Shown piece after piece: positions 46,458-61,692 of a DNA stretch of 64,000 nt. Origin of the DNA: a phage; the sequence record PZ402305.1, one strand, 5' to 3'. Position 1 is the first letter of the stretch. Each line of letters begins with the position of its first letter. Below the pieces are notes generated by a model. It saw only the letters and a list, made by a program, of their open reading frames with translations. It had not been told where the DNA came from and did not search any database. Made by a program: the position numbers and the translations under genes.

Positions 46458-46736
46458 TTAAAATGGTTCGTTAGTCTCCATCATATATTCTGCTTCTAGT
46501 TCTTCCATGTGCTTTCTAAATTGGAAAGCAATTTCTGCTACAGTTACATTTAAATCTTTTTCAAAAACTTCTGTAGAGCCTTCATAAAAACGAATACCGT
46601 CAATTAAAAGCCCTCCGTGGTAATCCCAATCACTTTCACGAGAAAGCGGGTTAGGCTCTTCATAATAGTAATCCACCTCCACGACTAAGGCTTTCCCGTT
46701 ACGAGTGGTGTATTCAAAATCAAAAGTGTTAATCAT
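46458..46736 (-). CDS. Hypothetical protein
   Basis: 92-aa acidic ORF between helicase and glycosyltransferase genes. Confidence 0.5.
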   Translation of the reverse strand: MINTFDFEYTTRNGKALVVEVDYYYEEPNPLSRESDWDYHGGLLIDGIRFYEGSTEVFEKDLNVTVAEIAFQFRKHMEELEAEYMMETNEPF

Positions 46737-47680: not shown

Positions 47681-47687
47681 ACTTCAC

Positions 47688-48635: not shown

Positions 48636-49308
48636 GTGCTAGTGCCTCCTCATAGGAAATTCGGATTTTCCCATTTTTAATATCCTCTAAAGATGCTTTA
48701 TATTCTTCCCAGTTAATCCCAATAGCAGCCTCTTTCTCTTCTTTTGTCAGGTTAGCAAAAGGCATAGGATTGTTTCCAAAAACATCGTCTGGGTGGATAT
48801 AAGCCATGATACGAAGTGGACAAGGTGTTGCCTGAATACCATGATTCAAACCAGCAGCTTGCAAACGGTGTCCCCATTCAGCATCTTCAAAACCATAACC
48901 GTGAGTGTAAGGACGGAAATAACCCATCTTCTCAACAACGGCACGAGAATACATTGCAAATTGACACATTGCAAGTTCCCAGAGAATAACTTCTCCTTTG
49001 CTTCCAACAACTTTATCTTTGAAATACTCCGGCATACCAAAGAAATCCCATCCTCCAGAGACAGCTTGATCTACAAAGTATGTTTCCCATCCCTCCATGA
49101 CTGGGTAGCAATCATCGTCAAAAATAAACCAATAATCATAACCTTCTTCATAAAACTGGTGCATAAGTTCATTCCTGGCATAAGCTACACCTTTACGATC
49201 TGGATCGTTGAATACTCGAAAATCTGCACGTGGATCTGTTACAAGGTAGTCTTTAAGTGGACGGACACCTACAGTGATAACACCCACTCCGATTTTAATA
49301 TTTTCCAT
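48625..49308 (-). CDS. Glycosyltransferase, GT-A fold (family-2-like)
   Basis: 227-aa ORF with N-terminal GVGVITVGVRP, acidic DxD-type motif YWFIFDDDCYP, and GYGFEDAEWGHRL resembling the GT2 signature. Confidence 0.55.
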   Translation of the reverse strand: MENIKIGVGVITVGVRPLKDYLVTDPRADFRVFNDPDRKGVAYARNELMHQFYEEGYDYWFIFDDDCYPVMEGWETYFVDQAVSGGWDFFGMPEYFKDKVVGSKGEVILWELAMCQFAMYSRAVVEKMGYFRPYTHGYGFEDAEWGHRLQAAGLNHGIQATPCPLRIMAYIHPDDVFGNNPMPFANLTKEEKEAAIGINWEEYKASLEDIKNGKIRISYEEALAHVK

Positions 49309-49316
49309 TTTCTCTC

Positions 49317-49880
49317 CTAAATAGTTTTACTGTGATCATGACAGTGTAATAAATGATGTATAGACCGTTGAGGATTTGTTTGACCTAATCTGTAAATGTG
49401 AAACAGATACATTCCCCGCATCAATCCTAACCTCTTTCCTTTTTCATGTAAAGTGCGAGAGAAAATTAAGTCGAATTGGATAGATTTTTCTTCGAAAGGA
49501 ATTTCATTCCACAATGATTTTCTAAAAAGCAAAAAGAAACCTGCCAGAGGTGTTCCGAAAGGAACTTCTTCAACACTTACTTTATGATATTCTCTTGCAA
49601 TCTTAGCATATTCTATATGGTTTAGAATATCGGGATCATCGTTAATTTGGTTAGAGAAAAGCTGATAACCACTACCTAACCTGTTACAAGTTGCACCTAT
49701 TACATCAAAAGGCGGGTTTGACATAACAAGCTCTTCAAGCATAGAGGGTTGATCAGGTAGGAGGAACATTGTATCGGTATCTCTTAAACACACCCAACTA
49801 TCATCTGGAAGAACGGCAATGGCTTCATTGATAGCCTTGCCGATATTTCCTGTCAGATAGGGAGTAATATAATAAATCAT
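49317..49880 (-). CDS. Glycosyltransferase-like protein (GT-A-like, putative)
   Basis: 187-aa ORF with LRDTDTMF (DxD-like) motif; adjacent to three other glycosyltransferase-like genes. Confidence 0.35.
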   Translation of the reverse strand: MIYYITPYLTGNIGKAINEAIAVLPDDSWVCLRDTDTMFLLPDQPSMLEELVMSNPPFDVIGATCNRLGSGYQLFSNQINDDPDILNHIEYAKIAREYHKVSVEEVPFGTPLAGFFLLFRKSLWNEIPFEEKSIQFDLIFSRTLHEKGKRLGLMRGMYLFHIYRLGQTNPQRSIHHLLHCHDHSKTI

Positions 49881-50581: not shown

Positions 50582-51103
50582 TTAACTCCCCTTTGGTAGA
50601 TAGAAACCATGCACTTTATCTCGATAAACAAGACGCATATCACGTTCCCAGTGTGTCCTTATATTCCGTTTCTTGAAGTATAGAGCACCTTTAGTAACAT
50701 CTAAAACAGACCGCAATTCAGGAAAATGTTTCTCTAAATAAAGTAAACGCTCCGCTATTGCTTTTGCTTCCTGCCACTTATCTTTCTCTGTTACGTTAAA
50801 AGTTTTCGCATATGAGAATTGCCCTTTCTGGAACAAGACTTCTCTGACTGTGTTAGGGAAGTAGGTATCATTTCTTCTGTTGATTACCACATTCCCAACG
50901 GCATTCATTCCTTTTTTACCCAGACCGCGACCTTCTGCGTAAATTGCACAAGCTAATAGAATTTTATCATTATATTGCTTTGTACATTTGTGAACTACTT
51001 TAGCGGTTTTTACGTTTGCAGCTTCGGCTTTCGCCACAACAGGTGTAAATGTAAAAGCAGTTAAGGATAGTAACGCAACTGTTACAAAGTTTTTTATCAG
51101 CAA
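50582..51103 (-). CDS. Secreted cell-wall hydrolase (SleB/Hydrolase_2-like), candidate endolysin
   Basis: 173-aa ORF; N-terminal signal peptide (MLIKNFVTVALLSLTAFTFTPVVAKA); CAIYAEGRG motif resembling SleB-type hydrolases; TTG start with AAGGAGG RBS and own promoter. Confidence 0.5.
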   Translation of the reverse strand: MLIKNFVTVALLSLTAFTFTPVVAKAEAANVKTAKVVHKCTKQYNDKILLACAIYAEGRGLGKKGMNAVGNVVINRRNDTYFPNTVREVLFQKGQFSYAKTFNVTEKDKWQEAKAIAERLLYLEKHFPELRSVLDVTKGALYFKKRNIRTHWERDMRLVYRDKVHGFYLPKGS

Positions 51104-51164: not shown

Positions 51165-51184
51165 GAGGGGGATTTCTCCCCCTC
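51165..51184 (-). terminator. Terminator-like hairpin after TerD gene
   Basis: Minus-strand gaggggg-agaaau-cccccuc stem-loop 20 nt after the TerD stop; U-tract weak. Confidence 0.4.
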
Positions 51185-51202: not shown

Positions 51203-51805
51203 TTATGGACATTCATACCATTCTTTTTTACCACCGAAGGCCATCACCACATCACAAATATCCAGACCAGCTTTGCCTACACCATATGCTTTCAGCTTCC
51301 ATTCCCCATCTTCACGAACCAAGGAAGCCACGTGGCAGATTGTGTTGCCAGCTACTTCAGGAGCCAGGAAGTCAAAATCCAGAATTTCCACATTGCGCTC
51401 GGAGTCGAAGATTTTAAGCATACCTTCAGAAGCATGACCAAAACGTTTCAGACCTGTATCATCATCAATGGTCAGAACAAAGGCAATCTCTTGTGCATCA
51501 GGAGAGATTTTAGCCAGAGTAATATCAATCTGCTCCATGCTGCCAGTTCCATCACGAACATCGTCACCAGCGAAGGTAGAACGTTCAGGATCAAACTTGT
51601 TAGCATAGCAAACCAGATGACGTGCAGACAGCATTTCAGGATTGCCAGCGGCATTGTGACGACAAACCAGTGCACTTACATCCAGATCCAGTTTAGAATC
51701 AGATTTCCAAGAGAATTCCAGGCGCAGTTCTTTCAGAGCCGGAGCAACCTTCTTCAGGGAAATTTTTTCGCTAGAGCCTTTTTTCAGGGAAATTTTATCA
51801 GTCAT
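51203..51805 (-). CDS. terD: TerD-family protein (tellurite-resistance/stress response TerD domain)
   Basis: 200-aa ORF; collinear with TerD proteins: N-terminal ISLKK repeats, LDLDVSALV, FVLTIDDD and C-terminal GEWKLKAYGVGKAGL. Confidence 0.8.
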   Translation of the reverse strand: MTDKISLKKGSSEKISLKKVAPALKELRLEFSWKSDSKLDLDVSALVCRHNAAGNPEMLSARHLVCYANKFDPERSTFAGDDVRDGTGSMEQIDITLAKISPDAQEIAFVLTIDDDTGLKRFGHASEGMLKIFDSERNVEILDFDFLAPEVAGNTICHVASLVREDGEWKLKAYGVGKAGLDICDVVMAFGGKKEWYECP

Positions 51806-51820
51806 CTTTTGTCTCCTCTA

Positions 51821-52090
51821 TTATTTAAGTGTAATACCAGTTACAGTCAATTCTACTTCCAAAAGCTTAGATGTGTTTTGGATTGATACTAATTGTGCAT
51901 GATGGTTTAGTTCTACAGCAGAATAATCATTTTCCCCATCATCTACTTTTAAATAAACAATAATTTCACTAAGGTCTAAACCATTTTCGTCAAATGCATT
52001 TTCATAGACGAAAGTATCTCCTACATCCAAATCTTTAATAGTAAGGCATCGTTTATTTACTTTTTGCTCATCAATTTCGAAGTTTAACAC
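51821..52090 (-). CDS. Small protein, paralog B of a duplicated ~90-aa family
   Basis: 89-aa ORF, GTG start with AGGAGG RBS; shares DLDVGxTF ... GLD ... TxTGITLK with 53112..53390. Confidence 0.55.
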   Translation of the reverse strand: MLNFEIDEQKVNKRCLTIKDLDVGDTFVYENAFDENGLDLSEIIVYLKVDDGENDYSAVELNHHAQLVSIQNTSKLLEVELTVTGITLK

Positions 52091-52319
52091 TTCTTCCTCC
52101 TAATGTTATCTCCGGTTTGTATATACGAAGAATTATAGCATTTTCATTTTCTTTGTCAACCCATTCTTCATAATCAGGCCATACATGAATCTCTACTCTA
52201 CTTACAATATCTTCCATTCGCACAGTCCCAATGAAATACTCTTTGAGACTGCGCATAATGAAAGCTTCTCTCTCACGCCAATAATTTTCTATGACTTGAG
52301 AGGCAAGCTCGTCGATCAT
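52071..52319 (-). CDS. Hypothetical small protein
   Basis: 82-aa ORF; start overlaps vWA stop (ATGA). Confidence 0.45.
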   Translation of the reverse strand: MIDELASQVIENYWREREAFIMRSLKEYFIGTVRMEDIVSRVEIHVWPDYEEWVDKENENAIILRIYKPEITLGGRSVKLRN

Positions 52320-53110
52320 TTTTTAGCACCTACTTTAACAACCCACTCTCCGAACTCTTCAGATAAGAGTTTGTCATAAAGCTCTGAATCTGTCAAGTCT
52401 AAATCTTTAATGCCAATAAAACCAACATTATCATAAGCATTTGCCAGTTCTTTCAGGAAGCCAAACTTCTCATTACCAACGCCAACCATGAACCAATAAA
52501 TAGGTTTATTCTTATTCTCTTCGATAAGACGACGAACAGCACTAGGATCACCATTCTCACCATCAGTCTGGAAGAATACAACACCAGGGGTAACGTCAGA
52601 ACCTGGTTCAGATACAGCTACAACTTTTTCACGCTCTACAGACACTGTTTCAGTTTTACCAAGCAGACGATTAAAGAAGCCTTTCTTTGGAGCCTCCTCT
52701 TGTACCACTTGTTTAGTGGTAATATATTTAGTAACAGTGCCAAAATACTCATCGTAGATATCCGCCATTACAGGGGCGTAATTTGTTCCACCTCCGATAC
52801 GAACATTACGCATACATTTACCAACATAGTCATCGTAAACATCTGCTGTTGCTGGAGTAAGCTCTTGGGAACTCGTATTGAAGGCCCACATATCAATTTG
52901 TTGATTATCGTCGAACAGCATACCAAAAGGAAGCAGTTTACCTACAAAATCACTCACTACCCCACTAGAATATAGACCATGCATACTACCAGAAATATCT
53001 AGAGCACATGCTACACGAAGAACAATCTTACCTTCATTCAGGTTCTTATTCTTTTTCAGAGAGAAAGCAAGGTTTTCTTGACGTTTTTTCAGGCTGATTT
53101 TCTCGGACAT
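52316..53110 (-). CDS. vWA-domain protein (TerY/TerF-like) with TerD-like N-terminal ISLKK motif
   Basis: 264-aa ORF; MIDAS motif DISGSM at start of a vWA-like domain; N-terminus MSEKISLKK mirrors the TerD N-terminus; AAGGAG RBS. Confidence 0.65.
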   Translation of the reverse strand: MSEKISLKKRQENLAFSLKKNKNLNEGKIVLRVACALDISGSMHGLYSSGVVSDFVGKLLPFGMLFDDNQQIDMWAFNTSSQELTPATADVYDDYVGKCMRNVRIGGGTNYAPVMADIYDEYFGTVTKYITTKQVVQEEAPKKGFFNRLLGKTETVSVEREKVVAVSEPGSDVTPGVVFFQTDGENGDPSAVRRLIEENKNKPIYWFMVGVGNEKFGFLKELANAYDNVGFIGIKDLDLTDSELYDKLLSEEFGEWVVKVGAKK

Positions 53111-53111
53111 A

Positions 53112-53390
53112 TTATTTCTCCTTCTTAAGTGTAATATTGGTAACTTCTAAATCTACTTCCACCATATTTGTATCTGGTGGGATGCAATGAGTATAGCCTC
53201 GTTGTGCTAGTGATCCATTAATACAGATCGCACTGTTTGTGGAATTTTTAATGAACACCAAGTTACGGTAGGTATCCAACCCTGCGTCTTCATAGGCATC
53301 ATAATACATGAATGTGGCCCCTACGTCAAGATCTTCGAAAGCAATAGGTAAATCCTGACTTTTTTCTTCTTGAATATTGAATCTAAACAC
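53112..53390 (-). CDS. Small protein, paralog A of duplicated family (start revised to internal GTG)
   Basis: Internal GTG at 53390 has a GAGGAGG RBS and aligns with the start of paralog B; track start 53456 lacks an RBS. Confidence 0.5.
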   Translation of the reverse strand: MFRFNIQEEKSQDLPIAFEDLDVGATFMYYDAYEDAGLDTYRNLVFIKNSTNSAICINGSLAQRGYTHCIPPDTNMVEVDLEVTNITLKKEK

Positions 53391-53946
53391 GCATACCTCC
53401 TCTACCAATTTTGAAGCCCAAATCGTAAGCTTCCTTAGTGATCTTTTGTAACTCACTTATAGGAAGTGTTACAAGAGGATCATCTTCTTCAATTTCCATC
53501 TTGTCATCTTCTGTTTCAATGAGAGTATTATGCACTTTGTGATAAGGGTTGTCAACACGTTTAAACTTATTCTTTTCTGTGCTGAAAAAACAATCTGGAT
53601 CTTCTTCACCATCACCCCAACCTTGGTTAGGATCTCCGTCAGATTGTTCTGTAGGGATTTCACCTGTAAAGTACTCTTCCAGCACCATAGCGATACCGTC
53701 CCTTGGATTTGAGGAATGCATCAAATCACAAACCTTACTCCAATCCATAGCCCATTCGAACCGTTCACGAACGCCGTTTTCATCCTCCTTTCCAGAGAAA
53801 ACACAACCATAACTATCATAGTTGCCATACATCTCTTCAATAACAACACCGTCCTTCAAAAGAAAGAGATAACAAGGCGATCCGTCGAAAGAAGTAGAAA
53901 GGGCAGCTTTGCCCGATTCTTTGCACAAAAAGCTAAAACAACCCAT
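53383..53946 (-). CDS. Hypothetical acidic protein
   Basis: 187-aa ORF within the Ter-like block; start overlaps upstream stop. Confidence 0.5.
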   Translation of the reverse strand: MGCFSFLCKESGKAALSTSFDGSPCYLFLLKDGVVIEEMYGNYDSYGCVFSGKEDENGVRERFEWAMDWSKVCDLMHSSNPRDGIAMVLEEYFTGEIPTEQSDGDPNQGWGDGEEDPDCFFSTEKNKFKRVDNPYHKVHNTLIETEDDKMEIEEDDPLVTLPISELQKITKEAYDLGFKIGRGGMRV

Positions 53947-54149
53947 TACAAACCCTCCTTCAGATTATCAAGAGCTACAGTGGTTTCACAAAAGTCTCCA
54001 TAAGTTTTATGATGTTCCAGAAAAGCTTCGGGTCCACCCCAGTCATTATCTTGTGTATTCCAGCCATCAATAAAAGCATCTTCAATGATTGTGATCAGTT
54101 CTTGTCGGGTTAACTGGATAATATTAGGATCGTTATCGTAGTTAAACAT
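53946..54149 (-). CDS. Hypothetical small protein
   Basis: 67-aa ORF; ATG overlaps the stop of the upstream micro-ORF. Confidence 0.45.
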   Translation of the reverse strand: MFNYDNDPNIIQLTRQELITIIEDAFIDGWNTQDNDWGGPEAFLEHHKTYGDFCETTVALDNLKEGL

Positions 54150-54315
54150 CCTCTTCCTCCTCTAAAATATGGAACCCGTAATTACAATAGTCCTGAAAGG
54201 TTTCGTGCGCAAGATCTTCTATATCCTCTTGAGACATATCATCTTCAATTTCGATATCCACAACCTCATTGCATCCACACCAAGCAGTTTCAATATTCAC
54301 TCGTAATATTTTCAT
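54142..54315 (-). CDS. Hypothetical small acidic protein (57 aa; shorter than the ORF track's 60-aa cut-off)
   Basis: ATG overlaps upstream stop (TAATG) and follows a GAGGAGGAG RBS; its stop overlaps the next start. Confidence 0.4.
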   Translation of the reverse strand: MKILRVNIETAWCGCNEVVDIEIEDDMSQEDIEDLAHETFQDYCNYGFHILEEEEDV

Positions 54316-54509
54316 TACTCCTCCTCATTGAAGTCAATATCTGCAAGGAGTTCGAATTTACGGAAGTTACGACAACCTTCATAAATATAACAATCACGAC
54401 AAACTGCTAGAACACTTGGGGGATATATGCCTCCCATCGGTGCGAATCGTTTTTCGTCATCATAACGGACACCAATGTCTTCATCAATTATATAGATACG
54501 GATTCTCAT
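54315..54509 (-). CDS. Hypothetical small protein
   Basis: 64-aa ORF; start overlaps TelA-like stop. Confidence 0.45.
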   Translation of the reverse strand: MRIRIYIIDEDIGVRYDDEKRFAPMGGIYPPSVLAVCRDCYIYEGCRNFRKFELLADIDFNEEE

Positions 54510-55618
54510 TTACCAAGCCCTCGTTTCACAGCAGCTACCATCCCGTCTTCCAGAGATTGAACTTCATTAATATAATCAACACGAGCAGCACGGGCTTCCG
54601 TATTGATGCGGTTAGTTTCTTCCAGCATCTTAACCAAGTTTTCCTGATCGTGACGCAGAGTTTCAATATCCAACACTTGACGGTTAGCCAGTGCTGCTGC
54701 TTCGATCTGATTCTGTGTGGCAAGATCGCTACCCAGTTTAATTGCCAGGTTAAATTCATCAAGAACGTTATTCTGCGTCTCTGCTGCTTTCATTTGACGT
54801 AAGCTCTCGATATACATTGAGAAGTTAGCAGAGTAAGCAGGAATAACATTATTTACTATGTTACGCGCAGATCGCATTAAGCTTGCAGAAACTTTTTGCA
54901 TACCTTGTACACGCGGTCCCATTTGGACACACAGTAGGCGCAATGCTTTTAAATCTGCAATACGAATCTCCAGAAGATCCAAAGTATCTCGGATCACTTG
55001 TCGCTGTTCTACTGCATCTTCTGGAAGAGCAGCCAAAGCTTGTTCTTCTTTTTCATAGGTTGCTGTTAGAAGCTGCATATCTCGGTTCAAACTTGCAGCA
55101 TATTGTCCAATAGCTTGATGTAGCTTTTCAAGATATACCAAGGAATCTTCTTCTTTGCGAATATCCATTTGAAGGTTCTTTACCAACTCTTCAATACGGT
55201 TATTAACATTATCAAACTCCCCAAACAGGTCTTCTTTCATACCCATAACTTTTTTAATGAGTTTAGTAATACCCTTGCTTTGTTTAATAGAGTTTGGATC
55301 AAGTTGTTTTGCCTGTTTAATCAAAGCTGTGAGTCGTTCACTCATCTGATCGCCTTGATTACTACGTTGATGTTTTAATACCTCGGCATTCAAGGAACGC
55401 AAGGTTGTTCCTGCCTCTGCCCCAATCTCTTCGATCTCTTGTCGGGTCATAGAAGGCAAAACTGGAACTTCTTGCGGTGCCGCTGGTGCATAAACAGGAC
55501 TGGCATCTAACACGCTTGGAGCGAATACAGATTTACTTGCATCTGTTGTTGCAGCAAATACGCTCATTTCAGGCTTCTTCTGACCACCAGTAGCTGCTTT
55601 TAAAAATGGACTTGTCAT
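54506..55618 (-). CDS. TelA-like (toxic anion resistance / KlaB-like) protein, putative
   Basis: 370-aa largely alpha-helical, Gln/Leu/Glu-rich ORF of TelA-typical size, between TerD/vWA and TerC genes; call rests mainly on context. Confidence 0.4.
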   Translation of the reverse strand: MTSPFLKAATGGQKKPEMSVFAATTDASKSVFAPSVLDASPVYAPAAPQEVPVLPSMTRQEIEEIGAEAGTTLRSLNAEVLKHQRSNQGDQMSERLTALIKQAKQLDPNSIKQSKGITKLIKKVMGMKEDLFGEFDNVNNRIEELVKNLQMDIRKEEDSLVYLEKLHQAIGQYAASLNRDMQLLTATYEKEEQALAALPEDAVEQRQVIRDTLDLLEIRIADLKALRLLCVQMGPRVQGMQKVSASLMRSARNIVNNVIPAYSANFSMYIESLRQMKAAETQNNVLDEFNLAIKLGSDLATQNQIEAAALANRQVLDIETLRHDQENLVKMLEETNRINTEARAARVDYINEVQSLEDGMVAAVKRGLGK

Positions 55619-56205
55619 TCTTCATTCTCCTCTTCTGCATCTCTTATATATGGTGAAACACCGTACTCTTTAGCTACTTTAACCCAATCGTCCCATTTAT
55701 ACAACCATAATTTTCCTTCGGTCCCTTCTTTATCTGATTTCAACCACATATTAGGTTGCTTACCTGGGTACATGCGATTAGGTTTACGATTATAACCTCT
55801 AACACATCTTGTCGCAAACCTATCTACCAGAACAAGAACATATTTATACTCGTGGTTCAACGGCTCTTTGGAAGTGGCTTTAGGATTAGCCCCTAATTCT
55901 GCTGCCAGTTTTTGCCAATGAGCACCGTGCCTACTAAACTTACCCATACAACCATCAATAGCATGAGCAATTTCGTGCTTCATTGTATCCACGATCATAT
56001 CTCTTGTGGAGTTCTTATGCAAGTGCCAATTTACAACAACAATTTTATCTCGGTAGTTGCACCAACCGAAAGAGTTATTCACTTTGTTTCTAACACAAGC
56101 TTTATATCCTGCTTCACGTAACATGTTGTAGTAAACAGGAAAATCTTCTTTTATTTCCTGCATCACTTCCCACCACAAGAGTTGCAAGTCTCTCTCGGTA
56201 TGCAT
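55615..56205 (-). CDS. SprT-like zinc metallopeptidase (putative)
   Basis: 196-aa ORF with HEIAH (HExxH) zinc-binding motif and a downstream His. Confidence 0.45.
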   Translation of the reverse strand: MHTERDLQLLWWEVMQEIKEDFPVYYNMLREAGYKACVRNKVNNSFGWCNYRDKIVVVNWHLHKNSTRDMIVDTMKHEIAHAIDGCMGKFSRHGAHWQKLAAELGANPKATSKEPLNHEYKYVLVLVDRFATRCVRGYNRKPNRMYPGKQPNMWLKSDKEGTEGKLWLYKWDDWVKVAKEYGVSPYIRDAEEENEE

Positions 56206-56208
56206 AAC

Positions 56209-56802
56209 TTACACCTTAAAAGTGAAATGCGTGGTCGTGGCTTCAAAATCAGGACCAGATAAACGTGCACTGAAATCTGAAATATTTGTAATTAAAAAGC
56301 TTTTATGCATACCTAACACAGCCACGCTTTCAATATCTTCTACTAACATTTCAATCATGTTAGAAACATGGCTGAACGTAGAGTTTTGTTTTTTGATGGT
56401 GTAGAAAGAAAGATTCCCACCTGCTGTATAAGATACCTCTTCAAAATCTTTAATCGTATATTGTGTGCCATCAGTAAAGAAAATGGTAGCTTTATTCGTA
56501 GCACGTTTCTTGTTTTTTGGTCCTTTTTTACGTTTACTGCGAGTAGGCAAACCGTTTGGGAACACCATAGCTACAAATTCTTCAGCAGAAACCTCCTTAC
56601 CGAAATCATAACCATAAGAGACAGCATCTATAAACTCGTCATCTTCATTTTTAAAATAATGGAAATAGGGCCAATTTGAAAGATTATCAAGCATCTTATG
56701 CTCGTCCACAGCAGAGAATGTATCCCTCAAAGCGCGTGTGATTTGCAAAGCATTAGGCAACCTTTTAACACCTACGATGGAAGTACGAATAGAAATTGTC
56801 AT
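56209..56802 (-). CDS. Hypothetical protein
   Basis: 197-aa ORF with AAGGAG RBS; Lys-rich central segment. Confidence 0.5.
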   Translation of the reverse strand: MTISIRTSIVGVKRLPNALQITRALRDTFSAVDEHKMLDNLSNWPYFHYFKNEDDEFIDAVSYGYDFGKEVSAEEFVAMVFPNGLPTRSKRKKGPKNKKRATNKATIFFTDGTQYTIKDFEEVSYTAGGNLSFYTIKKQNSTFSHVSNMIEMLVEDIESVAVLGMHKSFLITNISDFSARLSGPDFEATTTHFTFKV

Positions 56803-56816
56803 TGTTTTTCTCCTTA

Positions 56817-57254
56817 TTAACGTCGCTTGCTACGAGATGAACTCTTTTTACTTAAAGGGCTATTGTAAGATTTACGAGTTGTATAGCTACTATTTGTTTT
56901 AAAAGTTTGTCTCGGCTTTTCATAAGTTTTTATCTCTGGCTTAGGCTTACCATAAAAATTAGTTTTCGGTTTAGGTGTGTTATAATGTTTATTAATAATC
57001 GTTCTGTTATCGTTATAATCCCCGCTGCTACGATTACTACCGCCACTCATCATATGCCCTAACAACATACCTGTAGCAAACTCACCAACACCGCTACTAC
57101 TAGAACCGCCACCATTGTTGATAATAGTTGTATCTCCGTCAGATCCTTGTTGAGCGTATTGTTGAGGAGGTTGTTGGTATTGTGCAGGATTTGTTTCATC
57201 CTCGCAAGCTGTTAAAAAGATACAGCCAATTAAAATCAGGGCTAGTTTTTTCAT
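56817..57254 (-). CDS. Lipoprotein (start revised to ATG 57254)
   Basis: Signal peptide MKKLALILIGCIFLTAC with lipobox LTAC; internal ATG has GAGGA RBS; mature part Gln/Pro/Gly/Ser-rich. Confidence 0.5.
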   Translation of the reverse strand: MKKLALILIGCIFLTACEDETNPAQYQQPPQQYAQQGSDGDTTIINNGGGSSSSGVGEFATGMLLGHMMSGGSNRSSGDYNDNRTIINKHYNTPKPKTNFYGKPKPEIKTYEKPRQTFKTNSSYTTRKSYNSPLSKKSSSRSKRR

Positions 57255-57441
57255 ATTTGCTTTCCTCATTTTGACTATTAATACATCTGTGTTTGAAATC
57301 TCCAGAGAAGCAATAAAGTTGCTCTCCATCTCGGTATAAACTCACTTTACTGCCGTTGATTACGCTTGTCAATACAAAAATTACAACAAACAACCCTATT
57401 GCAAAACAAATATTTTCAAACACAATCAACAAGTATTTCAT
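57196..57441 (-). CDS. Small membrane protein (uncertain)
   Basis: 81-aa ORF with N-terminal hydrophobic helix; ATGA coupling to upstream gene; 3' end overlaps the lipoprotein start. Confidence 0.3.
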   Translation of the reverse strand: MKYLLIVFENICFAIGLFVVIFVLTSVINGSKVSLYRDGEQLYCFSGDFKHRCINSQNEESKYEKTSPDFNWLYLFNSLRG

Positions 57442-57788
57442 TTTAAAAATACCTCATCATCAGTTTCATTATCCCAGAAGAACAAATCCCAACCATTCGG
57501 ATCATTCCATTTGGCTGCTGGAGAAGTCCATATTTGTTCGATATCAATATTCAAAACTTCACCGTTTCGTTTTGAAACAGCTTTAGTTAATTCCCAACGA
57601 GATACAGGCTCTACTTCCCCTGAACCACTCCCACAACAAGCTACCACGTTAGGAGGCAAATTAATTGGATCTTTGGTCACGATCATAACGCTTACCCCAG
57701 GGTAAACTTTTGAAAGATAATCTAAAACGTAATCCACATCACCAGATAAATCCCAAACAAGTTCTTGAATTTCATCAAAATTATTCAT
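57438..57788 (-). CDS. Hypothetical acidic protein
   Basis: 116-aa ORF with AGGAGAG RBS just after the TerC terminator. Confidence 0.5.
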   Translation of the reverse strand: MNNFDEIQELVWDLSGDVDYVLDYLSKVYPGVSVMIVTKDPINLPPNVVACCGSGSGEVEPVSRWELTKAVSKRNGEVLNIDIEQIWTSPAAKWNDPNGWDLFFWDNETDDEVFLK

Positions 57789-57799
57789 AAGTCTCTCCT

Positions 57800-57824
57800 A
57801 TAAAATAGCCTCCCGAAGGAGGCT
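57800..57824 (-). terminator. Rho-independent terminator after TerC gene
   Basis: Minus-strand agccucc-uucg-ggaggcu stem-loop followed by AUUUUAU. Confidence 0.6.
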
Positions 57825-57830
57825 CATCTA

Positions 57831-58805
57831 TTAAACAGCAGCTTCTTCTTTTTCAGGGAAGATAAAGCTTGCAATAACACCAAGAGCTAATGTGCCTAGA
57901 ACAATCATCAGACTTACGTTAGGGGAAATATCATGCGGGAGGAATGACCACTTGGCATGAAGTGTTTCACCGAACGGGTGATACATAAGTTTAGCACCGA
58001 CAAATACCAGAACCACAGCAACAGCTTTCTCTAAGTGAACCAGATATTTCACAGCCACACTTAACACAAAGAAAAGTGCACGTAAACCAAGAACAGCCAT
58101 CAGCATTGCAGAATAAACTAGCAGAGGTTCTTGTGTCACACCGATCACAGCCGGAACTGAATCAAAAGAGAAGACAATATCTGTAAGCTCAATAACAAAC
58201 ACACAAAGAAGAGCAGGAGTTGCATATTTAATACCATTCTTAATGGTGATGAACTTTTCACCATCCAGTGCATTGTGCACAGGCAGAACTTTACCTACTA
58301 AACGAACAGCCCAATGCTTAGAGTAATCAATATCCTCTTCTTCGTCACCACCTTTGATGATAGCCACGGCAGACCAAGCTACAATCAAACCGAACAACAC
58401 TTGGACCGACCAATGAAGGTTAAACAAAGCGGTCCCTGCTGCAACAAAAATACCTCGGAAGACAATGGCTCCTGCAATTCCCCAAAGTAAAATCTTATGT
58501 TGGAGATGTGTGCTCTTAATTCCAAAGCTTGCAAAAATTGCCATGAACACCATCAGGTTATCTACAGAAAGACTCTTTTCCAACACATAGCCACTTAGGA
58601 AAAGCGCGGCAAACTCTTTACCATGTTCTACCCAAATGAATGCGTAATATCCTAAAGCTAAAGCAATCCAAAAAACAGACCAAAGCAAAGCAGATTTAAT
58701 TCCAATTTCTTTATTCTCTTTATGACCAAAGAAATCAATACCAATAGACAATGCTAAAATACCAACTAAAACAACTACATCAATAATGGGGAAACCAAGT
58801 TGCAT
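57831..58805 (-). CDS. terC: TerC-family integral membrane protein
   Basis: 324-aa ORF with multiple TM helices and the TerC-family signature EKSLSVDN. Confidence 0.75.
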   Translation of the reverse strand: MQLGFPIIDVVVLVGILALSIGIDFFGHKENKEIGIKSALLWSVFWIALALGYYAFIWVEHGKEFAALFLSGYVLEKSLSVDNLMVFMAIFASFGIKSTHLQHKILLWGIAGAIVFRGIFVAAGTALFNLHWSVQVLFGLIVAWSAVAIIKGGDEEEDIDYSKHWAVRLVGKVLPVHNALDGEKFITIKNGIKYATPALLCVFVIELTDIVFSFDSVPAVIGVTQEPLLVYSAMLMAVLGLRALFFVLSVAVKYLVHLEKAVAVVLVFVGAKLMYHPFGETLHAKWSFLPHDISPNVSLMIVLGTLALGVIASFIFPEKEEAAV

Positions 58806-58824
58806 TATTTTCTCCTTTCTCTTT

Positions 58825-58843
58825 GCGGGGAACCACTCCCCGC
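58825..58843 (-). promoter_or_regulatory. 5' leader stem-loop upstream of TerC start
   Basis: gcgggga-guggu-uccccgc hairpin between predicted -10 and the AAGGAG RBS. Confidence 0.3.
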
Positions 58844-58855
58844 CTCATGTGATAC

Positions 58856-58883
58856 ATCTTACTCTATTCTAAAACTTTGTCAA
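58856..58883 (-). promoter_or_regulatory. Sigma70-like promoter (TTGACA-N16-TAAGAT) dedicated to TerC
   Basis: -35 at 58878-58883 and -10 at 58856-58861 on minus strand, 50-nt leader to ATG at 58805. Confidence 0.5.
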
Positions 58884-58886
58884 CAC

Positions 58887-59108
58887 TTATTTTGAAGAAC
58901 TTGAGGAAAAGATCCCACGTAGTACAGCCATGATAAATGCCACACACACCACAGTCCAGAAGGTGACAGGAACAGTGATATCTGTGTGACCCATCATTTC
59001 AACAACGTAGTTATAAGCCAGCAGCAGAAGCCATGCTGGAATCATACTAATCAGAAAAGCAATAACAAACACAATAATCACTGCAAGAATACCTGCTAAA
59101 ACGTCCAT
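58887..59108 (-). CDS. Small membrane protein (two TM helices)
   Basis: 73-aa hydrophobic ORF (MDVLAGILAVIIVFVIAFLISMIPAWLLLLAY...). Confidence 0.5.
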   Translation of the reverse strand: MDVLAGILAVIIVFVIAFLISMIPAWLLLLAYNYVVEMMGHTDITVPVTFWTVVCVAFIMAVLRGIFSSSSSK

Positions 59109-59121
59109 AATATTTCTCCTC

Positions 59122-59595
59122 TTAAAGTTTATAAATAGTCACATCGTGACCTGTTTTTACTAAAGTTTCTTCAATCATCACTTCAATGATAGCCCAATTA
59201 CCTCCTGCCAACCCTGCTCCAATCATAGGTAAGCCGATCTTACATTTTTGGTCACGGAGAAGCAAATCGTTAGCCATAGCTATTAGTGCATCGTAAAGTG
59301 CATCATAGTCCAACTGACGACCTTTAGCATTGTATCCGTAACGGTATTGCCCGTATAGATTATATACCAAAGGGTCTGATTGTTCGTCTGGCACCCCTAA
59401 ACTAAAACAACCTAGTTTACTTTGATCACCAGCCATTGTGTCTAAGTCTGCTGCATATGCGTAAGGAAATGCTTGTTTGATTTGTGGGGCAATACCTGCC
59501 CCCATATTACACATACAGTTGCAACAATGAGCAATAACAGTTACTTCACCTGCTTTAGCGGCATCAATAAGATTACCTGTTTTCATTTTAAGCAT
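59122..59595 (-). CDS. Macro-domain protein (ADP-ribose binding/processing, putative; start revised to ATG 59595)
   Basis: Macro-like motifs VIAHCCNCMCNMGAGIA and GLPMIGAGLAGGNW; ATG at 59595 has AAGGAG RBS just after the PRTase stop. Confidence 0.45.
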   Translation of the reverse strand: MLKMKTGNLIDAAKAGEVTVIAHCCNCMCNMGAGIAPQIKQAFPYAYAADLDTMAGDQSKLGCFSLGVPDEQSDPLVYNLYGQYRYGYNAKGRQLDYDALYDALIAMANDLLLRDQKCKIGLPMIGAGLAGGNWAIIEVMIEETLVKTGHDVTIYKL

Positions 59596-59608: not shown

Positions 59609-60436
59609 TTACAGAATGTGTTGTTTTGTGTAACGATCCAAGAATTCAAAGTTTTCAGCATACTTTGAAATTCGGTTGTAACCTTCTCCCAAGCATCCAA
59701 AGAAAAGTTGCTCTACATAGTAATGTGGCAATTGGCTAAGAATGATTTTGAAGTCTTCATGATTTTGGCCCATAAGATACTTAATAGGACGAACAAGACA
59801 CTGTGCATCACGTTCTTCATTAATCATTTTAACAAACGCTTCTGGTGTATTAATGTAGTTAAAATTCAGTTTAGCTTCGGTATCTGCTTGATTACCTTCA
59901 TATTTTGCAAAATACAGGAAGTAAACATCATTTTTAACTTGATTTTCATTAAGGATCTCAATCAGTTTGTCTTCATGCGTTCCAGTGATATTTACATCAT
60001 CAATGAATACAAGCTTCTTATCACCCCAGAATTCTTTGTTACAGTAGAATGTATCCCCATCAATAAGTTTCTTACGACTAGCTTTATCCAAGAAACCATA
60101 ATCGTTGATATAGCTAACTTTACGATGAATAATGTCCAGTTCTGCTGAACGACCTTGATCATATTGTGCTTGCAACATATTAAAGTAATTAATAAAATGA
60201 TCTGTCATCATTGTTGCAGCATTATGCACATGGTTGTAAGGAGAAGGAATGATAACAAATTGTTCCCCAATATGTTTCATTGCCACTTGAGCAAAAAACT
60301 GAAGTGCCAATTCTTTACCCATACGACGCGCAGCTTGGTTACTACCAAATTTCAATTTTGAATAATCTTGGATATCAAAAGTAGCAGTTTCCAGGTCATC
60401 AAATTTATTTGCAAAAATTTGAGTTTGATTACGCAT
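59609..60436 (-). CDS. Phosphoribosyltransferase (type I PRTase fold) domain protein
   Basis: 275-aa ORF with PRPP-binding signature KKLVFIDDVNITGTHEDKL. Confidence 0.55.
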   Translation of the reverse strand: MRNQTQIFANKFDDLETATFDIQDYSKLKFGSNQAARRMGKELALQFFAQVAMKHIGEQFVIIPSPYNHVHNAATMMTDHFINYFNMLQAQYDQGRSAELDIIHRKVSYINDYGFLDKASRKKLIDGDTFYCNKEFWGDKKLVFIDDVNITGTHEDKLIEILNENQVKNDVYFLYFAKYEGNQADTEAKLNFNYINTPEAFVKMINEERDAQCLVRPIKYLMGQNHEDFKIILSQLPHYYVEQLFFGCLGEGYNRISKYAENFEFLDRYTKQHIL

Positions 60437-61085
60437 TTACAATTTCTCCTCTTTTAAGTTTCTCTAGTAAGTCGTTAGGGTTCTTAATATGACAGAAGTT
60501 AAACCCTAAGTCAACACATTTTCCATCATATTCTTCACTATCGCCTACGTGCAACACTTCGTGCCCTAACAGAGGGATCGGAGAATACGTGAGCGTGCGA
60601 GCAAAGAATCGCGGATCTGGTTTACAAAGTAAAGCTTCATCCGAGAAATGGGTGAACTCAAAACAATTCCAACTATCAAACTTACAAGCACGACGCAGAA
60701 TATCCCCTGATATGAAGTTGGTATTGCTCTTAATACTCAAATCATAACGCCCAGAAAGATACAGCAAGTACATCGGCAGATCTACGGCTACGTGTGGTGG
60801 AAACTTAAGAAACCACTGTTCACACTCGAAACGAAGCTTTGCAGACTTCCAAGGCGTTATCCCAAGTTCAGAACCAAGTCTTTCCCAGGCGTATGCTGCA
60901 CACTCGGCTTTGCCTTGAAGTGCTGCATTATCCAGTTCCTTTTTGATCTTTTTATAAGCTGCTCTTGCTTCAACTTCCGTAATATCTCCATATTTTGCGA
61001 TAGTCCAGGCTCGCATGTCTGCGTAATTGGAGTTTGCTGTGATCAGTGTGTTCCATACATCAAAAGAGATATGTTTAATAGTCAT
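60429..61085 (-). CDS. HAD-superfamily hydrolase (phosphatase-like)
   Basis: 218-aa ORF with HAD motif I-like FDVWNTL, motif III-like KPDPRFF and motif IV-like VGDSEEYD. Confidence 0.55.
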   Translation of the reverse strand: MTIKHISFDVWNTLITANSNYADMRAWTIAKYGDITEVEARAAYKKIKKELDNAALQGKAECAAYAWERLGSELGITPWKSAKLRFECEQWFLKFPPHVAVDLPMYLLYLSGRYDLSIKSNTNFISGDILRRACKFDSWNCFEFTHFSDEALLCKPDPRFFARTLTYSPIPLLGHEVLHVGDSEEYDGKCVDLGFNFCHIKNPNDLLEKLKRGEIVNA

Positions 61086-61086
61086 A

Positions 61087-61692
61087 TTAAGCCCACCATG
61101 CGTCTAAGTTAAGATTACTGTCCACTACCACTTGTTCTATGTGGTAGCCTTTTATCTGTATCCCACTGTTCAAGAGCATATCATACGCTTCATTGAAACG
61201 CAACTTATCTTCTGCGGAATATAAGCGAGCATTATAAAATCGGTAATCAATTTCTTCAGCATTAGAAGAAATACGGAAGAAGTTTGTTTCTACTTCGGGA
61301 TCACTTGCTGAAGTCTTAATGTGAACTTCTCCATAATTTTCTTTACTTAGATCCATGAAAAGAACACAGGCAACATGTTTAAACATTCGTTCCAGTTTGT
61401 AACGAACAACATTGAAACCTGCATTCTCAAGTTTTTCTACACACTGCAACATTAAAGTAGTGTCGAGATCGCTTTGATACTTTGTTAACATACGATCACG
61501 TTGAGACTTTGTATCCCGATGTAAATCAATTGTTGTGCATTTGGCACCAATAATCTTAGCTGCTTTCATCAACTCTTCAGAACTAACGTTAGATAAAGTA
61601 AGATGAAAATGGGCTTTCCACACTTTTTTAGCAGGGACACCAAAAGATTTATCCCCACTATTCGGCATGTTGACTACTACACTATGTTGCAT
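61087..61692 (-). CDS. Hypothetical protein (one HLTL motif reminiscent of 2H phosphoesterases; unconfirmed)
   Basis: 201-aa ORF; only a single H-x-T-x motif seen, so the 2H assignment is not supported. Confidence 0.5.
   Translation of the reverse strand: MQHSVVVNMPNSGDKSFGVPAKKVWKAHFHLTLSNVSSEELMKAAKIIGAKCTTIDLHRDTKSQRDRMLTKYQSDLDTTLMLQCVEKLENAGFNVVRYKLERMFKHVACVLFMDLSKENYGEVHIKTSASDPEVETNFFRISSNAEEIDYRFYNARLYSAEDKLRFNEAYDMLLNSGIQIKGYHIEQVVVDSNLNLDAWWA

What the first reader, a model, noticed from the sequence alone, without database searches (positions are those of the whole stretch)
51203..58883. Phage-borne Ter-like (TerD / vWA / TelA / TerC) locus
A co-oriented run of genes encodes a clear TerD-domain protein (51203-51805), a vWA protein with a TerD-like N-terminus (52316-53110), a TelA-like protein (54506-55618) and a TerC-family membrane protein (57831-58805). 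In bacteria these families co-occur in tellurite-resistance/stress systems that were historically linked to phage inhibition and colicin resistance. Here they sit inside an apparently virulent phage, interleaved with a SprT-like HExxH peptidase, a lipoprotein, small membrane proteins and tightly coupled micro-ORFs (ATGA/TAATG overlaps), which suggests an operon the phage uses for host takeover, superinfection exclusion or counter-defence. I am not aware of a characterised phage-encoded Ter module; that is a statement of my knowledge, not a search result.
Basis: partly seen in the sequence, partly recalled or inferred. Interest (0 to 1): 0.85.

Follow-up and report, generated by a model that had tools for sequence, protein, structure and literature searches.

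The report
Known phage-borne Ter stress-gene cluster
This lytic E. coli phage really does carry a cut-down copy of the bacterial "tellurite resistance" (Ter) membrane-stress genes, but the cluster is already annotated and discussed for near-identical phages, and nobody has yet tested what it does.

Summary
On the minus strand, profile searches confirm TerD (51203-51805), a vWA-TerF-like protein (52316-53110), TelA (54506-55618), TerC of the Alx subfamily (57831-58805) and a SprT-like HExxH protein (55615-56205). The window is a Phapecoctavirus (phAPEC8-like, about 150 kb). The block is 98-99% identical to more than 60 phage genomes and has no match in 5,426 complete E. coli genomes.

It is not new. 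GenBank records already label these genes TelA, TerC and TerE. The ZCKP1 paper (2018) notes four tellurite-resistance genes and proposes colicin resistance and superinfection exclusion. Iyer et al. (2021) describe phage Ter systems.

What I add:
- **Larger module.** It most likely extends upstream to a HAD phosphatase plus PRTase_3 pair (59609-61085). The same pair lies inside Ter clusters of three unrelated metagenomic phage contigs.
- **Own transcription unit.** TerC has its own sigma-70-like promoter and terminator.
- **Degenerate calcium loop.** The canonical TerD Ca2+ loop is degenerate in this phage subfamily, while the vWA MIDAS motif is intact.
- **Lineage-specific extras.** SprT and the other interleaved genes vary between related phages.

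The best reading is a reduced Ter membrane module expressed in the infected cell, most likely for exclusion or envelope protection. That function is inferred, not shown.

The parts
60429..61085 (-). HAD-superfamily phosphatase (family IA, REG-2-like), the first gene of the conserved HAD-PRTase_3 pair
   Evidence: Pfam Hydrolase E 4e-4. NCBIfam DREG-2 2.4e-8 and HAD-IA. Motif residues D9, S120, K155 and D182 are invariant in 6 phage homologues. It lies directly upstream of PRTase_3 in muut, L012, L014, L015 and L016.
59609..60436 (-). PRTase_3 (ComF-like phosphoribosyltransferase). This family belongs to the Ter-linked PRTase/HAD 'nucleoside biosynthesis' component described for Ter systems.
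   Evidence: Pfam PF15610 E 4.5e-42. The PRPP loop FIDDVxITGTHE is invariant. Homologues lie inside TelA/vWA/TerC/TerD clusters on three metagenomic phage contigs.
59122..59595 (-). Macro-domain protein (DarG-like). It is a neighbour; its membership in the module is uncertain.
   Evidence: Pfam Macro 8.7e-5. PADLOC DarG 5e-10. It sits between PRTase_3 and TerC in muut too (49% identity). It is absent from L012, L014, L015 and L016.
58887..59108 (-). Small membrane protein (73 aa, 2 hydrophobic segments)
   Evidence: Hydropathy. phrog_16065, unknown function. Conserved in muut at 59% identity.
58856..58883 (-). Sigma-70-like promoter for terC (TTGACA-16-TAAGAT). A 5'UTR hairpin follows at about 58825-58843.
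   Evidence: Promoter scan. It is at the same position as the 'putative host dependent promoter' annotated in phAPEC8. Hairpin -14.3 kcal/mol, z -2.9.
57831..58805 (-). TerC/Alx-family integral membrane protein (about 9 TM segments)
   Evidence: Pfam TerC 3e-40. TIGR03718 at 319 bits, above cut-off. 48-50% identical to bacterial TerC/Alx proteins. 9 hydrophobic segments.
57807..57824 (-). Terminator-like hairpin directly after the terC stop codon
   Evidence: Terminator scan. RNA fold -17 kcal/mol, z -3.9, UUCG loop followed by AUUUUAU.
57438..57788 (-). 116-aa protein of unknown function
   Evidence: phrog_27498. No Pfam family. No tblastn match in muut or 05F01.
57196..57441 (-). 81-aa single-pass membrane protein
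   Evidence: Hydropathy. Conserved in muut at 51% identity.
56817..57254 (-). Probable lipoprotein (lipobox LTAC, then a low-complexity G/S/N-rich and basic tail). The start codon is uncertain.
   Evidence: Read directly from the sequence. Conserved in muut (35%) and Klebsiella 05F01 (26%).
56209..56802 (-). 197-aa protein of unknown function with a C-terminal beta-hairpin-repeat-like region
   Evidence: Only 13 representatives among 1.84 billion proteins; residues 102-150 match repeatedly in two long proteins. Conserved in part in muut (41%) and 05F01 (33%).
55615..56205 (-). SprT-like HExxH metallopeptidase, translationally coupled to telA (ATGA overlap). A lineage-specific accessory gene.
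   Evidence: Pfam SprT-like 4.2e-9. Present in Klebsiella 05F01 (43.5%) but absent from the muut locus.
54506..55618 (-). TelA-family protein: a disordered N-terminus of about 55 aa, then long alpha-helices
   Evidence: Pfam TelA 3.2e-33. AF2 model is all-alpha, pLDDT 74.5. Homologues are found in 223 phage records.
53946..54509 (-). Three overlapping micro-ORFs (64, 57 and 67 aa)
   Evidence: Each has a ribosome-binding site, and they overlap by -4, -1 and -8 nt. The 67-aa ORF is conserved in muut and 05F01 (51-57% identity). The 57-aa ORF gives a weak DUF7167 hit.
53383..53946 (-). 187-aa acidic protein of unknown function
   Evidence: phrog_14928. 75% identical in muut and not detected in 05F01.
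53112..53390 (-). 92-aa protein, paralogue A of phrog_11278, directly before the vWA gene. A promoter-like site lies upstream at 53527-53555.
   Evidence: PHROG hit. Paralogy with 51821-52090: 34% identity, E 2e-14. Promoter matches 11 of 12 positions. Conserved before the vWA gene in muut and 05F01.
52316..53110 (-). vWA-TerF-like protein with an intact MIDAS motif
   Evidence: Pfam PF10138 1.6e-37. D38-x-S40-x-S42, T109 and D183 are invariant in 8 phage homologues.
52071..52319 (-). 82-aa protein of unknown function. It contains a perfect sigma-70 consensus promoter at 52132-52159.
   Evidence: phrog_22387. Promoter TTGACA-16-TATAAT with an upstream TG, 12 of 12 positions.
51821..52090 (-). 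89-aa protein, paralogue B of phrog_11278, directly before terD
51203..51805 (-). TerD-domain protein, the last gene of the block. A hairpin follows at 51165-51184.
   Evidence: Pfam TerD 3.2e-28. Aligns to Klebsiella TerD (2KXT) over residues 5-183, E 1.5e-15. Hairpin -16.9 kcal/mol, z -3.7.

Best explanation
**Identity (near certain).** This is the reduced Ter system of phages of the subfamily Stephanstirmvirinae. It is a run of same-strand, tightly packed genes in the replication and nucleotide-metabolism arm of a lytic phage of about 150 kb. Its parts are:
- the membrane protein TerC (Alx subfamily);
- three soluble partners, TelA, a vWA-TerF-like protein and TerD;
- just upstream, a HAD phosphatase plus PRTase_3 pair.

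**Mechanism (inferred).**
1. Host RNA polymerase reads the sigma-70-type promoters in front of terC, the vWA gene and terD soon after infection.
2. TerC inserts into the inner membrane, together with the small membrane proteins and the lipoprotein encoded next to it.
3. TerD, the vWA protein (through its metal-dependent MIDAS adhesion site) and the long helical TelA assemble on or under the membrane with TerC.
4. The PRTase joins a base to PRPP, and the HAD enzyme removes the 5'-phosphate. The product would be a nucleoside-like ligand for the complex.
5. The net effect is the one bacterial Ter loci are known for: a change in envelope and ion state that hinders incoming phages and pore-forming colicins, and that keeps the infected cell intact until lysis. 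In other words, superinfection exclusion and envelope protection for the resident phage.

SprT, the 197-aa, 187-aa and 116-aa proteins and the micro-ORFs are lineage-specific additions, not core parts.
For: **Shown here.**
- Family membership of all six core proteins.
- Catalytic and ligand motifs are intact: vWA MIDAS, PRTase PRPP loop, HAD motifs I-IV.
- The order TerC...TelA...vWA-TerD is conserved across three Stephanstirmvirinae lineages at 40-80% protein identity.
- The same four families cluster in Caulobacter, Pseudomonas and metagenomic phages.
- HAD-PRTase_3 is embedded between TerC and TerD in L012 and L016, and next to the vWA gene in L015.
- Sigma-70-like promoters and hairpins bracket terC and close the block after terD.
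- The phage proteins are old lineages (TerD 31% and TerC 48-50% identical to plasmid-borne bacterial ones), not recent pick-ups.

**From the literature.**
- Bacterial terC, terD and terZ are needed for phage inhibition and colicin resistance.
- A Klebsiella terC deletion gives larger plaques.
- TerC-TerD is reported as the minimal functional unit (PMC12054061).
- The same model is proposed for phage Ter systems (PMC7824862; PMC6141743).
Against: - No experiment on any phage Ter gene was found.
- The canonical TerD Ca2+ loop GDNRTG(E/A)GDGDDE is degenerate in this subfamily (GDD-VRDGTGSMEQ), whereas other phage TerDs keep it. This TerD may therefore not bind Ca2+ as Klebsiella TerD does.
- TerB, TerA and TerZ are absent. 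The Psa374 authors argue that such partial sets are unlikely to give tellurite resistance.
- No core protein matches any PADLOC defence model.
- The promoter calls are consensus matches only, and the scan found only about 2 sd more sites than shuffled sequence (59 against 45 +/- 7).
- Klebsiella phage 05F01 keeps the Ter genes but has its PRTase_3 homologue elsewhere in the genome. It also carries DUF475 in place of TerC.
Confidence: 0.45

Rival explanations
1. Metal-homeostasis helper. TerC acts as a Mn2+ (or Zn2+/Ca2+) exporter or metal chaperone at the Sec translocon, as shown for bacterial TerC-family proteins. The phage would use it to metalate exported phage or host enzymes, or to adjust cytoplasmic metal levels for its own enzymes. 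TerD, vWA and TelA would act as metal-sensing regulators.
For: - The phage TerC falls in the TerC/Alx 'metal homeostasis' subfamily.
- B. subtilis TerC proteins MeeF(YceF) and MeeY metalate exoenzymes during secretion (PMC10550928).
- Klebsiella terC affects Zn and Mn resistance.
- The block lies between anaerobic ribonucleotide reductase genes and a signal-peptide-bearing SleB-like cell-wall hydrolase.
- The vWA MIDAS motif is a metal site.
Against: - There is no Mn riboswitch or other known RNA element upstream of terC.
- This does not explain the PRTase_3-HAD link, nor why TelA, vWA and TerD travel with TerC in unrelated phages.
- The TerD Ca2+ loop is degenerate.
- The Klebsiella study found that TerC did not behave as a Zn/Mn efflux pump in a heterologous host.
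Confidence: 0.25
2. Counter-defence. The phage copies interfere with a host defence. They might form mixed, inactive complexes with a resident ter system or consume its nucleoside signal. Or they might stabilise the membrane against abortive-infection effectors that depolarise it.
For: - Several recorded hosts of these phages are STEC E. coli or Klebsiella, groups in which ter operons are common (for plasmids; PMC8193136, abstract listed).
- The neighbours look like anti-defence genes: a DarG-like macro domain and a protein matching PADLOC 'AbiEi' models.
- SprT-like proteases resemble the protease domain of the anti-restriction protein ArdC (my own knowledge, not tested here).
Against: - The phages also plate on K-12 MG1655, which lacks a ter operon (hosts listed; the absence of ter in K-12 is my own knowledge).
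- The phage proteins are only 31-50% identical to bacterial ones, which is distant for dominant-negative mixing.
- There is no direct evidence.
Confidence: 0.15
3. Part of the lysis or envelope-remodelling programme. The membrane proteins, the lipoprotein and the Ter proteins would tune the timing or the site of action of the adjacent secreted cell-wall hydrolase.
For: - The SleB-like hydrolase with an N-terminal signal or anchor sequence lies directly downstream in all three Stephanstirmvirinae lineages.
- Small membrane proteins flank terC.
- An overlapping membrane-protein/lipoprotein gene pair (57196-57441 and 56817-57254) superficially recalls a spanin pair.
Against: - The hydrolase has its own promoter, placed after a hairpin.
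- The 81-aa membrane protein has no long periplasmic coiled coil, and the lipoprotein is long and low-complexity, unlike typical spanins (read from the sequence).
- PHROGs gives no lysis category for any of them.
- The metagenomic and Caulobacter Ter clusters have no hydrolase next to them.
Confidence: 0.08

Closest known systems
Phage-encoded Ter systems already described: ZCKP1 and other Phapecoctavirus records, Psa374-like Otagovirus, Klebsiella phiKp34, Caulobacter and Acinetobacter ME3 jumbo phages
   Same: - The same four families (TerC, TerD, vWA-TerF, TelA).
- ZCKP1 is 98.8% identical over this block, and its paper proposes the same function.
- ME3 is reported to have PRTase and HAD genes as well.
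   Different: - In the papers I could read, the HAD-PRTase_3 pair is not pointed out for the roughly 150 kb Stephanstirmvirinae phages.
- Gene order and accessory genes differ between lineages. CcrSC has a compact TelA-vWA-TerC-TerD set. The Psa phages appear to have a short TerC-like protein (inferred from the alignment, consistent).
Bacterial terZABCDEF operon (IncHI2 plasmid R478, E. coli O157, Klebsiella plasmids)
   Same: - TerC and TerD, the two genes reported as the minimal functional unit.
- A vWA domain like the C-terminus of TerF.
- The historical phenotypes of phage inhibition and colicin resistance.
   Different: - No TerZ, TerA, TerB or TerE.
- The vWA domain is free-standing, not fused to TerD domains.
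- TelA is present, which belongs to a different bacterial operon.
- Identity is low: TerD 31%, TerC 48-50%.
- The TerD Ca2+ loop is degenerate.
Bacillus subtilis yceCDEFGH envelope-stress operon (TerD paralogues, TerC = MeeF/YceF, TelA = YceH)
   Same: The same 'hub' of TerD + TerC + TelA in one operon. This composition is my own knowledge. MeeF(YceF) as a TerC protein is in PMC10550928.
   Different: Bacterial and chromosomal, under stress sigma factors. It has three TerD paralogues and no PRTase_3/HAD pair. I did not compare the sequences here.
RK2 kilA/telA/telB (klaABC) tellurite-resistance determinant
   Same: Contains a TelA-family protein (cited).
   Different: No TelB or KlaA homologue was seen in the window, and that operon has no TerC or TerD.
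TerY-P anti-phage system (a vWA TerY protein with a phosphatase and a kinase)
   Same: A Ter-related vWA protein in a conflict context.
   Different: No PP2C phosphatase or kinase is nearby, and there is no PADLOC hit for the vWA protein.

Membership tests
TerD family (PF02342) | Profile match to the TerD beta-sandwich domain above the curated cut-off | tested here: met
   98.9 bits against a cut-off of 25.3, covering residues 5-179. Aligns to the solved TerD structures 2KXT and 3IBZ.
TerD family (PF02342) | Canonical Ca2+-binding loop GDN(R/L)TG(E/A)GDGDDE, as in Klebsiella TerD | tested here: not met
   The phage has GDD-VRDGTGSMEQ. Three acidic positions are replaced by T, S and M. The same is seen in muut and 05F01, whereas other phage TerDs keep GDNRTG..DDE. 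The upstream DLD motif is kept.
TerC family (PF03741; TIGR03718 TerC/Alx) | Profile match above the cut-off and a polytopic membrane topology | tested here: met
   Pfam 138 bits. TIGR03718 at 319 bits against 246. 9 hydrophobic segments.
TelA family (PF05816) | Profile match above the cut-off; an all-alpha soluble protein | tested here: met
   115.7 bits against 30. The AF2 model is all helical. The fold search gave only generic helical-bundle matches.
vWA-TerF-like (PF10138) | Profile match and an intact MIDAS motif (DxSxS...T...D) | tested here: met
   130 bits against 29.4. D38, S40, S42, T109 and D183 are invariant in 8 phage homologues.
TerF proper | TerD domain(s) fused N-terminally to the vWA domain | tested here: not met
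   Only a motif of about 20 residues is shared with TerD. There is no TerD Pfam hit on this protein.
Complete terZABCDEF tellurite-resistance operon | Presence of TerZ, TerA, TerB and TerE alongside TerC and TerD | tested here: not met
   There is a single TerD-domain gene and no TerB hit on any ORF scanned between 46736 and 62383.
Complete terZABCDEF tellurite-resistance operon | Confers tellurite resistance, phage inhibition and colicin resistance | not testable with these tools
   This needs expression and plating assays.
Ter-linked nucleoside-biosynthesis component (PRTases + HAD, as summarised in PMC7824862) | A PRTase of a Ter-associated family next to a HAD phosphoesterase, linked to Ter genes | tested here: met
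   PRTase_3 at E 4.5e-42 and the HAD gene lie 0.8 kb upstream of terC. The same pair sits inside Ter clusters in L012, L015 and L016.
Ter-linked nucleoside-biosynthesis component | Further enzymes of the bacterial version (ATP-grasp, additional PRTases). This list is recalled from memory; the 2012 paper could not be read. | tested here: not met
   No such Pfam hits among the neighbouring ORFs.
Catalogued anti-phage defence systems (PADLOC v2) | Match of the core proteins to a defence-system model | tested here: not met
   TerD, vWA, TelA, TerC, PRTase_3 and HAD give no hit.
SprT-like metallopeptidase (PF10263) | Profile match and an HExxH zinc site | tested here: met
   36.7 bits against 25.6. 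HEIAH is present in the sequence.

The most novel reading that the evidence does not exclude
The phage carries a self-contained, six-gene Ter machine that makes its own nucleoside-like signal through HAD and PRTase_3. It would use TerD, vWA and TelA to switch TerC and the membrane into a state that blocks DNA entry by rival phages and colicin pores. If so, this compact set, in a genetically tractable E. coli phage, would be the simplest system in which the unsolved mechanism of Ter (open since the 1970s-90s) and the identity of its predicted metabolite could be worked out.
Probability: 0.25. Interest if true: 0.6.

Novelty: already known. Interest (0 to 1): 0.3.

Why it matters
The biochemical mechanism of Ter systems is still unknown, although they are widespread and linked to virulence, phage inhibition and colicin resistance. 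A lytic phage that keeps a minimal set (TerC, TerD, vWA, TelA, plus a PRTase-HAD pair) points to which parts are sufficient. It also offers a small, deletable test bed in E. coli. For phage therapy the practical point is smaller. Phapecoctavirus phages are used as therapeutic candidates, and their 'tellurite resistance' labels are sometimes read as resistance cargo. The set lacks TerB, TerA and TerZ, and according to the Psa374 authors such partial sets are unlikely to confer tellurite resistance. As a discovery, however, the locus is already in the databases and the literature.

Tried and rejected
- **A Mn riboswitch or alx-type leader before terC.** No Rfam match at the gathering threshold or at E <= 1.
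- **A TelA fold search for a mechanistic clue.** Only generic helical hairpins and bundles came up (CorA cytosolic domain, IpaB, ClyA, ESCRT-III-like), so it is not informative.
- **An exhaustive search with the 197-aa protein.** 13 representatives and no annotation.
- **Pfam on recurrent unknown ORFs of other phage Ter clusters.** No families. The PBECO4 'putative peptidase' next to TelA turned out to be an exoribonuclease-like protein, so there is no recurrent TelA-peptidase pair.
- **Macro domain as part of the HAD-PRTase_3 unit.** Not supported, because it is absent from L012, L014, L015 and L016.
- **A spanin reading of the membrane-protein/lipoprotein pair.** Rejected on sequence features.
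- **Bacterial or prophage origin.** Rejected.
- **The 2012 Anantharaman-Iyer-Aravind Ter paper.** It could not be read, so statements about it rest on later papers that summarise it.

Full report
**What is there.**

The region 51203-58883 is a run of same-strand, tightly packed genes on the minus strand.

| Gene | Coordinates | Pfam E-value |
|---|---|---|
| TerD | 51203-51805 | 3.2e-28 |
| vWA-TerF-like | 52316-53110 | 1.6e-37 |
| TelA | 54506-55618 | 3.2e-33 |
| TerC | 57831-58805 | 3e-40 |
| SprT-like | 55615-56205 | 4.2e-9 |

- NCBIfam places the TerC in the TerC/Alx 'metal homeostasis' subfamily, at 319 bits against a cut-off of 246.
- Every gene has a GGAG-type ribosome-binding site, and most junctions overlap by 1, 4 or 8 nt. 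The 'coupled micro-ORFs' are therefore real.
- The 'TerD-like N-terminus' of the vWA protein is only a motif of about 20 residues. All eight phage vWA-TerF-like proteins I aligned share it. It is not a TerD domain.

**Where it comes from.**

- The 7.7 kb block is 98-99% identical to more than 60 complete phage genomes of the genus Phapecoctavirus: phAPEC8, ESCO13, ZCKP1, nieznany and others.
- It has no match in 5,426 complete E. coli genomes. Plasmid homologues are below 60% identity.
- The window has a structural-gene arm on the plus strand (1-38 kb). The minus-strand arm carries DNA polymerase, primase/helicase, glycosyltransferases, the Ter block and anaerobic ribonucleotide reductase genes.
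The homologies hold, and the contig is a phage.

**It is already known.**

- GenBank records of these phages label the genes 'TelA superfamily protein', 'integral membrane protein TerC', 'tellurium resistance protein TerE', 'VWA domain-containing protein' or 'tellurite resistance'.
- The ZCKP1 paper states that four tellurite-resistance-related genes are present. It proposes that they give the infected cell colicin resistance and prevent superinfection (PMC6141743).
- Iyer et al. 2021 describe Ter systems in jumbo 'and certain other related smaller tailed' phages. Their list of parts includes PRTase and HAD enzymes, TerB and TerD, TerC, and TelA with the TerF vWA domain. They suggest competition with superinfecting phages (PMC7824862).
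- Similar notes exist for phiKp34 and the Psa374-like phages, where the function is called unknown.
- I found no experiment on any phage Ter gene.

**The module is larger than the finding.**

- Directly upstream of terC, and transcribed before it, lie a HAD phosphatase (60429-61085) and a PRTase_3 (59609-60436; PF15610, E 4.5e-42).
- Both keep their catalytic motifs in six phage homologues.
- The pair has the same place and order in Justusliebigvirus muut, at 50% and 64% identity.
- More tellingly, PRTase_3 homologues of about 48% identity sit inside Ter clusters on three unrelated phage-like metagenomic contigs:
  - L012, 350 kb: TelA-vWA-...-TerC-x-HAD-PRTase_3-TerD.
  - L016, 198 kb: TelA-vWA-...-TerC-HAD-PRTase_3-TerD.
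  - L015: TerC-...-TerD-x-vWA-...-HAD-PRTase_3.
- On a fourth contig (L014) the pair stands alone. In Klebsiella phage 05F01 the PRTase_3 homologue lies elsewhere in the genome. The link is therefore frequent but not obligatory.

**Core and accessory genes.** tblastn of all window proteins against related loci shows the following.

- *Kept in all three Stephanstirmvirinae lineages, in the same order:* TelA (41-78% identity), vWA (61-66%), TerD (49-81%), the small phrog_11278 protein before the vWA gene, the lipoprotein, part of the 197-aa protein, the 67-aa ORF and the downstream cell-wall hydrolase.
- *TerC:* 71% identical in muut. In 05F01 its place is taken by a DUF475 protein (E 5e-93) that also weakly matches TerC.
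- *SprT:* present in 05F01 (43.5%) but missing from muut.
- *Variable:* the 187-aa, 116-aa and 201-aa proteins and the macro domain.
- *Outside this subfamily:* Caulobacter phage CcrSC has a compact TelA-vWA-TerC-TerD set.
- Conclusion: the four Ter families plus HAD-PRTase_3 are the recurrent core. SprT and the rest are lineage-specific.

**Transcription signals (predicted only).**

- A TTGACA-16-TAAGAT promoter lies in the 81-nt gap before terC (58883-58856). This is exactly where the phAPEC8 authors annotated a host-dependent promoter.
- A stable hairpin with a short U tract follows the terC stop codon (-17 kcal/mol, z -3.9).
- Near-consensus promoters lie before the phrog_11278A-vWA pair (11 of 12 positions) and before the phrog_11278B-terD pair (12 of 12, with an upstream TG). 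The two small proteins are paralogues (34% identity, E 2e-14).
- A hairpin (-16.9 kcal/mol) closes the block after terD, and a separate promoter serves the hydrolase.
- No known RNA family, including Mn riboswitches, is present.
- Host-type promoters, and the position among replication genes, suggest early or middle expression. This is an inference.

**Protein features that bear on mechanism.**

- The vWA MIDAS residues are invariant.
- The phage TerD aligns with Klebsiella TerD over its whole length. However, the canonical Ca2+ loop GDNRTGEGDGDDE reads GDD-VRDGTGSMEQ here and in the related muut and 05F01, while other phage TerDs keep the motif. Calcium binding in the Klebsiella manner is therefore doubtful for this subfamily.
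- TelA is predicted to have a disordered N-terminus of about 55 residues followed by long helices. The fold search returned only generic helical bundles.
- The phage proteins are distant from enterobacterial ones (TerD 31%, TerC 48-50%), so they are an old phage lineage rather than a recent capture.
- None of the core proteins matches a PADLOC defence model.

**Most likely function.**

In bacteria:
- terC, terD and terZ are needed for phage inhibition and colicin resistance.
- TerC-TerD is reported as the minimal functional unit.
- A Klebsiella terC deletion gives larger plaques (PMC12054061).
- TerC-family proteins also move Mn2+ and metalate secreted enzymes (PMC10550928).

The best-supported reading is that the phage expresses a reduced Ter complex at the inner membrane of the infected cell, possibly governed by a nucleoside made by PRTase_3 and HAD. 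The complex would exclude rival phages and colicins and protect the envelope. I put this at about 0.45. Identity is near certain, and function is inferred.

Rivals:
- A metal-homeostasis helper (0.25).
- Counter-defence against host Ter or membrane-targeting abortive infection (0.15).
- A role in lysis control with the neighbouring hydrolase (0.08).

**Verdict.**

The feature is already known and annotated, and its function is still untested. Interest is modest. It rests on the open mechanism of Ter systems and on the fact that this phage offers a compact, tractable version that includes the metabolite-making pair.

Noticed in passing
window 59122-59595 (-): A macro-domain protein resembles the macro domain of the antitoxin DarG (PADLOC DarG 5e-10; NCBIfam antitoxin_DarG partial match 1e-8). 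A 42%-identical homologue lies 3 kb from TelA in Pseudomonas phage phiPsa315, and a fused version sits at the same spot in phage muut. It may be a phage counter to DarT-type DNA ADP-ribosylation.
   Followed up: partly
window 61087-61692 (-): A 201-aa protein next to the HAD gene matches two PADLOC 'AbiEi' models over its full length (5e-13). It has many invariant His, Lys, Arg and Glu residues (H28/H30/T32, R97/K99/E101, E122/H124/K126). Its confident AF2 model shows two tandem ferredoxin-like units, but no solved fold family matches it specifically. It is found only in Phapecoctavirus-like phages, and its function is unresolved.
   Followed up: yes
window 53112-53390 (-) and 51821-52090 (-): Two paralogous proteins of about 90 aa (phrog_11278, 34% identity). 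Each sits behind a near-consensus sigma-70 promoter and directly before the vWA gene and terD respectively. The copy before the vWA gene is conserved in muut and Klebsiella 05F01. Their function is unknown.
   Followed up: partly
window 46736-49880 (-): Four consecutive glycosyltransferase-like genes lie downstream of the Ter block. One gives a weak hit to the TET-associated glycosyltransferase family (E 1e-3, below cut-off). They could modify the cell surface or the DNA.
   Followed up: no
L006 1512-2576 (Klebsiella phage 05F01): This distant relative carries a DUF475 membrane protein (E 5e-93, with a weak TerC hit) at the position where Phapecoctavirus has TerC. This suggests the two families can substitute for each other in phage Ter modules.
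   Followed up: partly
L012 11530-12468; L015 7094-8029; L016 11445-12398 (also L012 3989-6561, L016 5746-7011, L015 4603-5772): Unrelated metagenomic phage Ter clusters share unannotated ORFs of about 311-317 aa right after TerD, and of about 390-430 aa after the vWA gene or TerC. The L012 ORFs scanned gave no Pfam family. Judging by size and position only, these may be further uncharacterised Ter partners, absent from this window.
   Followed up: no
window 50582-51103 (-): A SleB-like cell-wall hydrolase (Hydrolase_2, E 2.7e-17) has an N-terminal hydrophobic signal or anchor sequence and its own promoter. It lies directly downstream of terD in all three Stephanstirmvirinae lineages examined.
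   Followed up: partly
window 1-64000: No Rfam family reaches its gathering score anywhere in the window, tRNAs included. GC skew flips sign near 38 kb, where gene orientation switches from the plus-strand structural arm to the minus-strand replication arm.
   Followed up: no
L010 5686-6357 (phiPsa315_015): A gene annotated 'hypothetical' between the vWA gene and TerD of the Psa phage looks like a short TerC-family membrane protein (LLLGLDNAIVIALA motif seen in an alignment). I did not test it by profile search.
   Followed up: no
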